The position numbers and the translations under genes were made by a program. Below are positions 15,631 through 17,480 of a DNA stretch of 48,088 nucleotides, piece after piece. The DNA lies in the IMG/VR virus record IMGVR_UViG_2844443253_000007. The stretch is one strand, 5' to 3'. The notes under the pieces were generated by a model. The model ran no database searches, was not told the DNA's origin, and was given only the letters and a program-made list of their open reading frames with translations. This DNA is from a virus. Taxonomy: Duplodnaviria; Heunggongvirae; Uroviricota; Caudoviricetes. The first letter of the stretch is position 1, and each line of letters opens with the position of its first letter.

Positions 15631-16004
15631 CTAGGACAACTAACCGTAACTTATCGCATCCTTTCAGGGGCGGGATGACCAATTACAGACACCAAGCGTT
15701 CTACTTAAAGTGAATGCTTCCTGTGTGCTCTGGGTCAGTCGATAAGTGAATAGCAATAAGACACAATCATCTTAATTATGGTCTCTAGTCCCTACAGGGG
15801 CTTAACTTAAAGTTAACTTAAAGACACAATTAAAGATTAACTTATAGTATTACTTAAAGTTAACTTAAAGACACAATTAGAGATTAACTTTAAGTATTAA
15901 ATAAAAGATTTAATTAAAGACCAATTAAAGATTAACTCTAAGGGAATACCTTAAGGGGTGATGATATTTATAATAATCAATCACCAAACCTATAGGTCTT
16001 CTCT
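15631..16004 (+). repeat. AT-rich non-coding region with reiterated CTTAAAG / TTAAAGA motifs (T7-group left-end / origin-like)
   Basis: Units such as cttaaagttaacttaaagacacaattaaagattaactta repeated; no ORFs. Confidence 0.7.
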
Positions 16005-16076
16005 TGAAGTGGCACACTGAATTTGGCCACCTGAACAGAGGTGATATGCTCACCTCAGAACAACACAGGTGCTCCA

Positions 16077-16379
16077 ATGAAAAAAAGAAATTTTAGCGCA
16101 GAGTTTAAACGCGAATCCGCTCAACTGGTTGTTGACCAGAAATACACGGTGGCAGATGCCGCCAAAGCTATGGATGTTGGCCTTTCCACAATGACAAGAT
16201 GGGTCAAACAACTGCGTGATGAGCGTCAGGGCAAAACACCAAAAGCCTCCCCCATTACCCCGGAACAAATTGAAATCCGTGAGCTCAGGAAAAAGCTACA
16301 ACGCATTGAAATGGAGAATGAAATATTAAAAAAGGCTACCGCGCTCTTGATGTCAGACTCCCTGAACAGTTCTCGATAA
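16077..16379 (+). CDS. IS911 OrfA
   Basis: [21 protein letters not shown]...; ORF track extends start to 16041. Confidence 0.9.
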
Positions 16380-16405
16380 TCGGGAAACTCAGAGCGCATT
16401 ATCCT

Positions 16406-17245
16406 GTGGTCACACTCTGCCATGTGTTCGGGGTTCATCGCAGCAGCTACAGATACTGGAAAAACCGTCCTGAAAAACCAGACGGCAGACGGGCTGTATT
16501 ACGCAGTCAGGTACTTGAGCTACATGGCATCAGCCACGGTTCGGCCGGAGCAAGAAGCATCGCCACAATGGCAACCCGGAGAGGCTACCAGATGGGACGC
16601 TGGCTTGCTGGCAGGCTCATGAAAGAGCTGGGGCTGGTCAGCTGTCAGCAGCCGACTCACCGGTATAAACGTGGTGGTCATGAACATGTTGCTATCCCTA
16701 ACTACCTTGAAAGGCAGTTCGCCGTGACCGAACCAAATCAGGTGTGGTGCGGTGATGTGACCTATATCTGGACGGGTAAGCGCTGGGCGTACCTCGCCGT
16801 TGTTCTCGACCTGTTCGCAAGAAAACCAGTGGGCTGGGCCATGTCGTTCTCGCCGGACAGCAGGCTCACCATGAAAGCGCTGGAAATGGCATGGGAAACC
16901 CGTGGTAAGCCCGGCGGGGTGATGTTCCACAGCGATCAGGGCAGTCATTATACGAGCAGGCAGTTCCGGCAGTTATTGTGGCGATACCAGATCAGACAGA
17001 GTATGAGCCGGCGCGGAAACTGCTGGGATAACAGCCCAATGGAACGCTTCTTCAGGAGTCTGAAGAACGAATGGATGCCGGTGGTGGGTTACGTAAGCTT
17101 CAGCGAGGCAGCTCACGCCATAACGGACTATATCGTTGGATATTACAGTGCACTAAGACCGCACGAATATAACGGTGGGTTACCCCCAAACGAATCGGAA
17201 AATCGATACTGGAAAAACTCTAACTCGGTGGCCAGTTTTTGTTGA
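16406..17245 (+). CDS. IS911 OrfB transposase (DDE)
   Basis: 279-aa rve-type ORF. Confidence 0.9.
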
Positions 17246-17253
17246 CCACTTCA

Positions 17254-17480
17254 TCTAGGGTCTCTCTATAGGTCTTCTCTATGGTCTCTCTATAGGTCTC
17301 TCTAGGGTCTCCTCTAGGCATTACCCCCAGAAGCTAACTCTATGGCCCTCTATGGTCCTCTATGGCCCTGTACGTCATTCTTTAGGATGCCCTGTAGTTT
17401 CGTATAGCCTGATGCCTAGAGAGACCCTAGAGAGACCCTAGAGTGGCTCCTAGAGAGACCCTCCCAGTAGCTCCGCACAG
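17254..17480 (+). repeat. Short direct repeats TCTCTATAGG / CTATGGCCCT / CCTAGAGAGACC (T7-group genome-end-like)
   Basis: Reiterated 8-12-bp motifs, non-coding; continuous with 15631-16004 region once IS911 is removed. Confidence 0.65.

What the first reader, a model, noticed from the sequence alone, without database searches (positions are those of the whole stretch)
15631..17480. T7-group genome-end-like short repeats flanking an IS911 insertion with intact target duplication
Left of IS911 is an AT-rich block with reiterated CTTAAAG motifs, recalling the CCTAAAG repeats at the T7 left end and the AT-rich primary origin. Right of IS911 are GC-richer TCTCTATAGG / CTATGGCCCT / CCTAGAGAGACC repeats, recalling repeats near the T7 right end and terminal repetition. 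IS911 is flanked by TCT on both sides, so the two blocks were originally contiguous (...tataggtcttctct|agggtctctctatagg...) and together resemble a concatemer-junction/packaging region.
Basis: partly seen in the sequence, partly recalled or inferred. Interest (0 to 1): 0.7.

Follow-up and report, generated by a model that had tools for sequence, protein, structure and literature searches.

The report
Control region of a T7-promoter island
The repeats are real and lie just downstream of three perfect phage T7 promoters, inside a decayed copy of a small chromosomal island family first described in 2006 that seems built to be switched on, and possibly copied, when a T7-like phage infects the cell.

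Summary
It includes an AT-rich CTTAAAG block (15795-15945), an IS911 copy (16005-17253) with a TCT target duplication, and GC-richer arrays (17254-17462). IS-free relatives show the two blocks were contiguous.

Immediately upstream (15268-15636) are three tandem 121-bp units, each with an exact T7 class III promoter. Upstream of those lie a tyrosine integrase and a tRNA-Gly attachment site. This matches the "tandem T7-like promoter island" family of Chen & Schneider (NAR 2006). I found relatives in 91 of 5,426 E. coli genomes and in many Enterobacterales, with promoters matched to the local phages (K11-type in Klebsiella).

- **Origin-like block.** The AT block shares far more words with the AT-rich parts of the T7 and K11 replication origins than shuffled controls do.
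- **Weak end resemblance.** Similarity to T7 genome ends is only at motif level. There is no terminal repeat and no ATCTGTT junction signal.
- **Best reading.** It is the cis-acting module of a T7-RNA-polymerase-dependent satellite or defence island, most likely a T7-type origin. A packaging role is unproven.
- **This copy is dead.** IS911 splits the module, IS1 truncates the cargo gene, and attR is missing.

Relatives carry RAZR and a protein with a predicted HK97 capsid fold.

The parts
13462..13536 (+). tRNA-Gly(UCC), the last of a Met-Arg-Thr-Gly tRNA cluster. Its 3' end (13514-13536) is the attL core of the island.
   Evidence: ARAGORN. Relatives integrate at the 3' end of tRNA-Gly with a 24-bp direct repeat. 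No second copy of the core exists in the window.
13651..15255 (+). Island tyrosine integrase (534 aa).
   Evidence: Pfam Phage_integrase, E 2e-17. It is 65-87% identical to integrases of islands in 19 loci from Enterobacterales genomes.
15268..15636 (+). Three tandem 121-bp units, each with an exact T7 class III promoter TAATACGACTCACTATAGGGAGA (15344-15366, 15465-15487, 15585-15607), all pointing rightward.
   Evidence: TRF 3.1 copies, 96% matches. Exact matches, 0 expected. The best extended match in T7 is phiOR (42 bp at 86%).
15637..15794 (+). Conserved transcribed spacer (ccgtaacttatcgcatcctttcaggggcgggatgacc...gtcagtcgataagtgaatagc).
   Evidence: Conserved in E. coli and Klebsiella islands and in 23 metagenome contigs.
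15795..15945 (+). AT-rich block of reiterated (A)CTTAAAG / TTAAAGA words in 47-bp units. Proposed T7-type origin AT region.
   Evidence: Word sharing with T7 ori 5925-6010 (z 7.5) and K11 phi1.05 (z 7.3). These are the best non-promoter blastn hits in all of T7.
15957..15985 (.). Conserved AT-looped palindrome GGTGATGATATTTATAATAATCAATCACC.
   Evidence: GTGAT-N(4-24)-ATCAC occurs once in the window, once in T7 (39330) and once in K11 (40609). In both phages it lies ~100 nt downstream of phiOR. It is conserved in E. coli and Klebsiella islands.
16005..17253 (+). IS911 insertion. The TCT target duplication is at 16002-16004 and 17254-17256.
17254..17316 (+). Proximal array of ~12-bp units CTA(T/G)(A)GGTCT(T)CT. 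It carries GGGTC/TGGTC (T7 primase recognition pentamers) on the + strand.
   Evidence: The unit CTATAGGTCTTCT matches 10 of 13 positions of the reverse complement of the T7 left-end unit ACCAGACCTAAAG (read by eye). Copy number runs from 1 to ~10 in relatives.
17338..17369 (+). CTCTATGG(C/T)C x3 repeat.
   Evidence: Present as CTGTATGGCCC x2-5 in relatives.
17415..17462 (+). Distal array CCTAGAGAGAC x4, the inverted complement of the proximal array. GGGTC falls on the - strand.
   Evidence: Reduced to a single degenerate copy in KilA-N-type islands.
17522..17606 (+). Conserved long leader hairpin immediately upstream of the cargo gene's ribosome-binding site.
   Evidence: RNAalifold on 12 islands gives 30 pairs, 4 of them with compensatory changes.
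17623..17778 (+). 5' remnant of the Rha/Ant-like cargo gene, cut by IS1 at about 17779.
   Evidence: Pfam Phage_pRha, E 6e-10. tblastn to the intact 234-aa Rha of L040 covers residues 1-41 only.

Best explanation
The segment is the non-coding, cis-acting module of a decayed 'tandem T7-like promoter island'.

Intact relatives are 4.2-6.4 kb, integrated at a tRNA-Gly and bounded by 24-bp direct repeats. Their order is: tyrosine integrase, sometimes the anti-T7 RNase RAZR, one to four T7-group phage promoters, about 1 kb of repeat-rich non-coding DNA, a structured leader, then Rha/KilA-N-type DNA-binding proteins. Larger islands also carry a protein with a predicted HK97 capsid fold.

The cell has no matching RNA polymerase, so the module is silent until a T7-like phage supplies one (inferred). 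T7 RNA polymerase then transcribes rightward from the three promoters.

I propose that the promoter plus AT-rich CTTAAAG block works like a T7 replication origin, which is by definition a T7 promoter followed by an AT-rich stretch. The transcript would open the AT block. T7 DNA polymerase would extend it. The helicase-primase would load on the displaced + strand and meet the dense GGGTC/TGGTC sites of the downstream arrays. The island would thus be amplified by the phage's own replisome while its cargo is expressed. All of this paragraph is inferred.

Whether the GC-richer arrays also serve packaging is open.

In this window the element is dead. IS911 separates the AT block and palindrome from the arrays, IS1 truncates the cargo gene, and attR is gone.
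For: Shown here:
- Three exact T7 promoters, 0 expected by chance.
- No ORF longer than 571 aa in the window, so no 883-aa phage RNA polymerase gene.
- An integrase and tRNA-Gly attL.
- Relatives in 91 of 5,426 E. coli genomes, all chromosomal. Those examined lie at tRNA-Gly with direct repeats bounding 4.2-4.3 kb.
- Relatives in 19 loci from other Enterobacterales genomes. About 15 of these have + strand T7-group promoters 60-1,260 nt downstream of int, with host-matched specificity: K11-type AATTAGGGCACACTATAGGGAGA in Klebsiella and AATTAACCCACACTATAGGGAGA in Proteus.

For the origin reading:
- The AT block's best non-promoter matches in the entire T7 genome are the primary-origin AT region 5935-6005 and the phiOL AT region.
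- It shares 17 8-mers with T7 ori against 2.4 +/- 2.1 in shuffles, 0 of 500.
- The Klebsiella island's block matches the K11 phi1.05 region (z 8.5) but not T7 ori (z -0.9).
- The palindrome is found once per genome in T7 and K11, downstream of phiOR in each.
- T7 primase pentamers number 16-37 per ~1-1.3 kb of non-coding DNA in E. coli islands, against 4-5.5 in mononucleotide shuffles.
- Sigma-70 promoters and intrinsic terminators show no excess.

From the literature:
- T7 replicates, packages and transduces plasmids that carry a T7 origin, a pac site and a terminal repeat (PMC13236587, citing Chung & Hinkle 1990).
- RAZR/PD-T7-4 defends against T7 and 'often overlaps an integrase gene'.

Family cargo includes an HK97-fold protein.
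Against: - There are no experimental data.
- The AT block begins about 190 nt after the last promoter start. In T7 the AT region follows within ~10-20 nt.
- A second island subtype (L011, L012, L022-L027) lacks any AT-rich block and has a GC-normal conserved ~550-nt stretch instead. An origin of this form is therefore not universal in the family.
- Much of the primase-site enrichment comes from tandem repeats. It is absent in the Klebsiella island (10 sites against 5.7 expected).
- Word sharing could reflect a common 'T7 intergenic dialect'. For example, TTAACTTTAAG also occurs in the T7 gene 10 leader (my own knowledge), rather than marking origin function.
- No excised (attP) junction was found in viral or metagenome contigs.
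- IMG/VR hits come from isolate-genome prophage calls (inferred from the contig names), not viromes.
Confidence: 0.5

Rival explanations
1. The two blocks together mimic the T7 concatemer junction or pac region, so T7 terminase cuts and packages island DNA, making it a natural T7 phagemid.
For: - The promoter's best extended match is phiOR, which lies ahead of the T7 right end.
- The palindrome corresponds in position to one downstream of phiOR in T7 and K11.
- Nine of the twelve best T7 windows for the GC-richer block lie within about 940 bp of a T7 end.
- The units resemble the T7 left-end and right-end short repeats, for example AGAGGGCC, CCTATAGG and CATCCTAAAG.
- Engineered plasmids with a T7 ori plus junction are packaged.
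- Relatives encode an HK97-fold protein.
Against: - There is no terminal repeat. TCTCACAGT-like and GTGTCCCT-like near-matches are sparse and scattered. ATCTGTT is absent from 41.5 kb of island non-coding DNA on both strands.
- Only 8-11-nt words are shared, and they are not colinear.
- blastn against 50,697 phage records finds nothing beyond the promoters.
- Array copy number and orientation are not conserved between islands.
- No attP or concatemer was seen in viral or metagenome contigs.
Confidence: 0.2
2. The module is only a phage-polymerase-triggered expression switch, in other words a defence island. The promoters sense T7 RNA polymerase and drive the Rha/KilA-N and other cargo to abort or interfere with infection. 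The AT block and arrays are a long 5' leader plus slippage-prone filler, with no replication or packaging role.
For: - Promoters, leader hairpin and cargo are the most widely conserved parts, including in the subtype without an AT block.
- Many islands carry RAZR/PD-T7-4, a proven anti-T7 abortive-infection RNase.
- The arrays are hypervariable.
Against: - The AT block and palindrome are conserved between E. coli and Klebsiella islands while their flanks diverge.
- The specific word sharing with phage origin regions, partly matched to host, is not expected of filler.
- An integrase, direct repeats and an HK97-fold gene point to mobility that depends on a helper phage.
Confidence: 0.25
3. The direct and inverted arrays are binding-site clusters (iteron-like) for the island's own Rha/KilA-N DNA-binding protein, or for a phage or host protein. 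They would regulate excision, transcription or sequestration.
For: - Units of 11-13 bp occur in direct and inverted orientation.
- The long CTAGGGTCTCT arrays are seen in the two Rha-type islands (the window and L040). KilA-N-type islands have other repeats, such as AATCAATACG x3 and GATGACCATAGGC x3-14.
Against: - Only two Rha-type examples are available.
- The arrays lie more than 1.5 kb from either att site, so they are not integrase arm sites.
- There are no binding data.
Confidence: 0.12
4. The segment is a leftover of the genome ends of an integrated T7-like prophage.
For: T7-type promoters and T7-like sequence words are present.
Against: - Compact 4.2-6.4-kb islands with the same architecture recur in many genera, bounded by direct repeats.
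- None has a T7 structural, replication or RNA polymerase gene.
- There is no extended homology to any phage record.
Confidence: 0.03

Closest known systems
Tandem T7-like promoter-bearing islands of enterobacteria (Chen & Schneider, Nucleic Acids Res 2006;34:1133, doi 10.1093/nar/gkj511)
   Same: Tandem T7-group promoters with no polymerase gene, an upstream tyrosine integrase, terminal direct repeats, a few phage-regulator-like genes, and presence in Shigella/E. coli, Klebsiella and others. A 2020 review cites this paper in connection with the sit island that also lies in this window.
   Different: I could not read the paper because it is not held. Only its title appears in reference lists, and its content is from my memory. 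As far as I recall, it proposed satellites of T7-like phages. I do not recall it describing an origin-like AT block, RAZR or a capsid-fold protein. The copy here is degraded by IS911 and IS1.
T7 replication origins (primary origin phi1.1A/phi1.1B plus a 61-bp AT-rich region; secondary origins phiOL and phiOR)
   Same: Tandem phage promoters point into an AT-rich stretch made of the same words (TTAACTTTAAG, AATTAGAGATT, AACTTAAAGA), followed by T7 primase recognition sites.
   Different: A ~190-nt spacer lies between promoter and AT block. The AT block is longer and tandemly repeated. It sits on a bacterial island rather than in the phage. Its function is untested.
T7 concatemer junction / engineered T7 phagemids (Chung & Hinkle 1990; used in PMC13236587)
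   Same: A small DNA carries T7 promoter and origin-like sequences that could be amplified, and conceivably packaged, by T7. The short repeats are reminiscent of the arrays next to the T7 terminal repeat.
   Different: No terminal repeat, no ATCTGTT junction signal and no colinear homology.
Phage satellites (P4-like, PICI, cf-PICI, PLE, PICMI)
   Same: A small integrase-bearing island at a tRNA, apparently wired to respond to a specific helper. Relatives carry a defence gene and a capsid-fold gene.
   Different: The helper would be a virulent T7-like phage. Sensing would be through the helper's own RNA polymerase promoters rather than a protein-protein derepression switch. The island has no primase/replicase, terminase or portal of its own. 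None of the satellite literature I searched mentions this family.
RAZR / PD-T7-4 (Nature 2026, PMC13017515; Vassallo et al. preprint 10.1101/2022.05.12.491691)
   Same: The 210-aa gene between int and the promoters in many islands matches PD-T7-4 over its full length (E 8e-99).
   Different: It is absent from the window's island. The passages I read in the RAZR papers do not mention the T7-type promoters next to it.

Membership tests
Tandem T7-like promoter island (Chen & Schneider 2006) | Two or more tandem T7-group promoters in one orientation within a few hundred bp | tested here: met
   Three exact 23-nt T7 promoters spaced about 121 bp apart (121 and 120 bp), all on the + strand.
Tandem T7-like promoter island (Chen & Schneider 2006) | No cognate single-subunit RNA polymerase gene nearby | tested here: met
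   The longest ORF in the 48-kb window is 571 aa, against 883 aa for T7 RNAP. No polymerase gene is annotated in the related loci.
Tandem T7-like promoter island (Chen & Schneider 2006) | Tyrosine integrase upstream of the promoters, in the same orientation | tested here: met
   13651-15255 (+), Pfam Phage_integrase.
Tandem T7-like promoter island (Chen & Schneider 2006) | Direct repeats of about 17-24 bp at both ends | tested here: not met
   The attL core is present (13514-13536), but no second copy exists in the window at up to 3 mismatches. Intact relatives have both copies. This fits loss of the right end to IS activity.
Tandem T7-like promoter island (Chen & Schneider 2006) | Promoters drive a few phage-related, non-structural genes | tested here: met
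   A Rha-family gene starts at 17623 and is truncated by IS1. It is intact in L040.
T7-type replication origin | Phage promoter(s) directed into an AT-rich segment | tested here: met
   Promoters at 15344-15607. The AT block at 15795-15945 has a minimum GC of 0.16. The spacing (~190 nt) is longer than in T7.
T7-type replication origin | Sequence relationship to phage origin AT regions | tested here: met
   Word sharing with T7 ori and K11 phi1.05, z 7-8.5, with 0 of 300-500 shuffles reaching it. These are the best non-promoter hits in T7. The similarity is at word level only.
T7-type replication origin | Primase recognition sites (GGGTC/TGGTC/GTGTC) on the displaced strand downstream | tested here: inconclusive
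   The window has 25 sites against 4.5 +/- 2.0 expected. They are largely carried by tandem repeats, fall on both strands, and are not enriched in the Klebsiella island.
T7-type replication origin | Replication that depends on T7 RNA polymerase, DNA polymerase and gp4 | not testable with these tools
   Needs infection or in vitro replication assays.
T7 concatemer junction / pac region | Terminal repeat with conserved ends (TCTCACAGT... / ...CTCTGTGTCCCT) | tested here: not met
   Only scattered near-matches, and no repeat bounded by them.
T7 concatemer junction / pac region | Junction pause signal ATCTGTT just past the repeat | tested here: not met
   0 occurrences on either strand in 41.5 kb of island non-coding DNA from 20 islands.
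T7 concatemer junction / pac region | Arrays of short repeats like those flanking the T7 terminal repeat | tested here: inconclusive
   Nine of the twelve best T7 windows lie within about 940 bp of a T7 end, and one unit matches 10 of 13 positions. Only 8-10-nt words are shared.
T7 concatemer junction / pac region | Packaging by T7 terminase | not testable with these tools
   Needs a transduction or DNase-protection assay.
Phage satellite | Excision and circularisation, or presence in virus particles | tested here: inconclusive
   The attP junction pattern is absent from viral and metagenome contigs. Metagenome copies sit on chromosomal contigs. Exact-match searches of assemblies are weak tests.
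Phage satellite | Genes that interact with helper morphogenesis | tested here: not met
   There are none in the window's copy. Relatives encode an HK97-fold protein.
IS911 (IS3 family) | Full-length element with terminal inverted repeats and a 3-bp target duplication | tested here: met
   99% identity over 1,249 bp to annotated IS911, with inverted repeats and TCT on both sides.

The most novel reading that the evidence does not exclude
These islands are natural 'T7 phagemids'. They would be minimalist satellites of virulent T7-group phages that encode almost no functions of their own. Instead they would use cis-acting mimics of the helper's promoters, replication origin and perhaps packaging signals. 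Larger members would add their own HK97-fold capsid protein and the anti-T7 RNase RAZR. The CTTAAAG block and GGTC arrays in this window would be the origin and primase or packaging part of that mimicry.
Probability: 0.3. Interest if true: 0.85.

Novelty: already known. Interest (0 to 1): 0.5.

Why it matters
No satellite of a virulent T7-like phage has been demonstrated experimentally, as far as I could find. The 2006 computational description has only five citing papers in the held library.

Three things follow if the non-coding module is a phage-type origin, with or without a pac site.
- It would be a parasite that hijacks T7 almost entirely through DNA mimicry.
- It would explain why RAZR (PD-T7-4) 'often overlaps an integrase'.
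- It would offer a natural chassis for T7-based transduction.

For this window specifically, the practical value is an annotation. The repeats are not a phage genome end. They are the IS-disrupted control region of a dead island next to the sit locus.

Tried and rejected
- blastn (distant mode) of 15256-16004 against 50,697 phage records found only ~60-bp matches around the promoters. The low-complexity filter may hide the AT block, so I repeated the comparison locally against T7 and K11 without a filter.
- A search for colinear homology to the T7 right end, terminal repeat and left end found none.
- Searches for terminal-repeat end motifs and the ATCTGTT junction signal in 20 islands found nothing meaningful.
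- The attP junction pattern was absent from IMG/VR and metagenome contigs (0 hits). An island-specific 19-mer pattern retrieved 23 metagenome copies, none obviously free or concatemeric.
- Rfam at gathering thresholds on three island loci found nothing in the non-coding module.
- A sigma-70 promoter and terminator scan showed no excess.
- The integrase arm-site idea was rejected on distance from the att sites.
- A micro-ORF starting at ATGATATTT (about 15961) was rejected by reading the sequences. Its Shine-Dalgarno spacing is poor, and its length and reading frame are not conserved between islands.
- The conserved ~400-aa protein compared with T7 gp10 by hhalign, and with PDB by sequence, showed no similarity. 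Only the predicted fold identifies it.
- The Chen & Schneider 2005 and 2006 papers could not be opened.
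Full report
**Observation**

The sequence is as described. Tandem Repeats Finder reports four arrays:
- an AT-rich array at 15802-15937, with a 47-bp unit x2.9 and 11/23-bp sub-periods;
- 17249-17316, period 12/24;
- 17338-17369, CTCTATGGCC x3.2;
- 17415-17462, CCTAGAGAGAC x4.3.

The first and last GC-richer arrays are inverted complements. Six of the window's 13 CTTAAAG copies fall within 190 nt.

The insertion at 16005-17253 is IS911. It is 99% identical over its full length to annotated IS911. 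It has 27-nt terminal inverted repeats and TCT on both sides.

**Missed context**

The finding's left boundary cuts off its most informative neighbour. Positions 15268-15636 hold three tandem 121-bp units. Each contains the exact 23-nt T7 class III promoter TAATACGACTCACTATAGGGAGA, all pointing toward the repeats (0 expected by chance).

- Upstream are a 534-aa tyrosine integrase (13651-15255) and a tRNA-Gly(UCC) whose 3' end is the attachment core.
- Downstream of the repeats are a conserved leader hairpin and the first 52 codons of a Rha-family gene, which IS1 cuts at about 17779.
- No second att copy exists in the window.
- No ORF is long enough to be a phage RNA polymerase.

**It is a family**

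The non-coding region has relatives in 91 of 5,426 complete E. coli genomes, always chromosomal. In seven examined loci the island sits at tRNA-Gly. In six of the seven a 24-bp direct repeat bounds 4.2-4.3 kb.

A scan of one genome per species with the integrase found 19 loci in Klebsiella, Citrobacter, Enterobacter, Pectobacterium, Proteus, Buttiauxella, Lonsdalea and others. About 15 of these have + strand T7-group promoters 60-1,260 nt after the integrase, and their specificity region changes with the host. Klebsiella has the exact K11 consensus AATTAGGGCACACTATAGGGAGA, plus a T7-type and a third type. Proteus has AATTAACCCACACTATAGGGAGA. Another E. coli/Citrobacter subtype has CTTAACTATCACTATAGGGAGAG. 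Twenty-three metagenome contigs repeat the pattern: E. coli-type spacer with T7 promoters, Klebsiella-type spacer with K11 promoters.

**Prior art**

[quoted passage not shown] I could see its title only in reference lists, because the paper is not held.

From memory, it described 12 islands of 4-13 kb with an upstream integrase and terminal direct repeats, and it suggested satellites of T7-like phages. A 2020 review cites it for the sit island. The window carries a sit-type Mn/Fe ABC transporter at 22479-25928, so this very locus was probably among those described.

Only five papers in the library cite it. Searches of the satellite literature found no follow-up.

**What the repeats resemble**

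Against the complete T7 genome, the promoter units match phiOR best (42 bp at 86%). The best non-promoter hits of the whole module are the AT-rich parts of the primary origin (5935-6005) and of phiOL.

The AT block shares 17 8-mers with T7 5925-6010, against 2.4 +/- 2.1 in dinucleotide shuffles (0 of 500). The shared words include the 11-mers TTAACTTTAAG, AATTAGAGATT and ACTTTAAGTAT.

The K11 equivalent region just after its RNA polymerase gene contains ACTTAAAG three times. The Klebsiella island's AT block matches that region (z 8.5) but not T7's origin (z -0.9). The E. coli block matches both.

At the end of the AT block is a conserved palindrome, GGTGATGATATTTATAATAATCAATCACC. The pattern GTGAT-N4-24-ATCAC occurs once in T7, once in K11 (in both ~100 nt downstream of phiOR) and once in the window.

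So 'promoter, then AT-rich CTTAAAG words, then palindrome' parallels phage origin and phiOR regions. A T7 origin is, by established knowledge, a T7 promoter followed by an AT-rich segment. Plasmids carrying one, plus a pac site and a terminal repeat, are replicated and packaged by T7 (PMC13236587, citing Chung & Hinkle 1990).

**The GC-richer arrays**

Local alignment of this block against every 300-bp T7 window puts nine of the twelve best windows within about 940 bp of a T7 end (scores 14-18; mean 10.5, sd 1.6). By eye, the unit CTATAGGTCTTCT matches 10 of 13 positions of the reverse complement of the T7 left-end unit ACCAGACCTAAAG.

The case weakens on closer inspection.
- The shared words are only 8-10 nt and are not colinear.
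- No island has a terminal repeat or ATCTGTT.
- The arrays range from one degenerate copy to about ten and are not always inverted.

The arrays are dense in T7 primase recognition pentamers, with 16-37 per ~1-1.3 kb of non-coding DNA in E. coli islands against 4-5.5 expected. That fits an origin model, but it is partly a by-product of repetition and does not hold in Klebsiella.

**Family cargo**

These genes lie outside the finding but bear on mechanism.
- Many islands carry a 210-aa gene between int and the promoters that matches PD-T7-4 over its full length (E 8e-99). This protein is now called RAZR. It is an abortive-infection RNase triggered by the T7 portal, and it was noted to 'often overlap an integrase gene'.
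- Larger islands carry DUF6971 and a conserved ~380-400-aa protein, found in 25 loci.
- The AlphaFold model of that protein (pLDDT 64, pTM 0.63) hits only HK97-fold capsids and encapsulins: 95 PDB hits and 167 BFVD hits at E <= 1e-3. It has no sequence similarity to T7 gp10.

Together these point to an element that both opposes and exploits T7-like phages. The window's copy has none of these genes.

**Verdict**

The T7 connection is real, but the best-supported identity is the cis-acting module of a known and obscure T7-promoter island, here inactivated by IS911 and IS1.

Within that module the AT block is most plausibly a T7-type origin (about 0.5). A packaging role for the arrays is possible (about 0.2) but lacks the defining junction features. 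A pure expression-switch or defence reading remains a serious rival.

A second island subtype without any AT block shows the origin-like part is not universal.

Noticed in passing
window 15268-15636: Three tandem 121-bp units each carry an exact T7 class III promoter. They lie just outside the finding's left boundary, and the copies are 96% alike.
   Followed up: yes
L016 11629-12837 (Klebsiella island); homologues in 25 island loci; absent from the window: A conserved ~380-400-aa island protein has no Pfam family. Its predicted structure (moderate confidence) matches only HK97-fold capsid and encapsulin proteins. It is preceded by a DUF6971 protein and a small 'IDPRTPEGR' protein of 54-76 aa.
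   Followed up: partly
L016 8624-9256, L011 1601-2260, L020 8616-9245, L032 8645-9286 and others: The gene between the integrase and the phage promoters in many islands is PD-T7-4 / RAZR, a HEPN RNase activated by the T7 portal. In the passages I read, its papers do not mention the adjacent T7-group promoters.
   Followed up: partly
window 17522-17606 (and the same position in 12 aligned islands): A conserved ~85-nt hairpin lies immediately upstream of the cargo gene's ribosome-binding site, with 30 pairs and 4 compensatory changes. It may be an RNase III-type processing or stabilising element, as in T7 mRNAs. It has no Rfam family.
   Followed up: partly
L011 2281-2830, L012 8300-8860, L022-L027: A second island subtype has promoters of the form CTATCACTATAGGGAGA. 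In place of the AT block it has a GC-normal conserved ~550-nt non-coding stretch between two promoter clusters. This could be a phage-polymerase-transcribed non-coding RNA and remains unexplained.
   Followed up: no
L001 15720-15770 and the same place in L035-L039: KilA-N-type E. coli islands carry AATCAATACG x3 leading into CAATACGACTTACTAATAGGAGA. This sequence resembles a T7 promoter with 5 mismatches and could be a promoter for a different phage polymerase.
   Followed up: no
L001 14771-14935 (and L037-L040): Upstream of the promoters, E. coli glyU islands have 3-14 copies of GATGACCATAGGC followed by inverted TGTGGTCCTA units. Both carry TGGTC on opposite strands, and copy number differs between strains.
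   Followed up: partly
window 13226-13536: The island sits at the last gene of a tRNA cluster (Met-CAU, Arg-UCU, Thr-UGU, Gly-UCC) rather than at the chromosomal glyU used in E. coli. L012 shows the same arrangement, which suggests integration into a tRNA array carried by a prophage.
   Followed up: no
window 22479-25928 (-) and 30996-32519 (+): A sitABCD-like Mn/Fe ABC transporter operon and a group II intron reverse transcriptase/maturase are present. The window is dense with IS1, IS911 and other IS copies, in the style of Shigella.
   Followed up: partly
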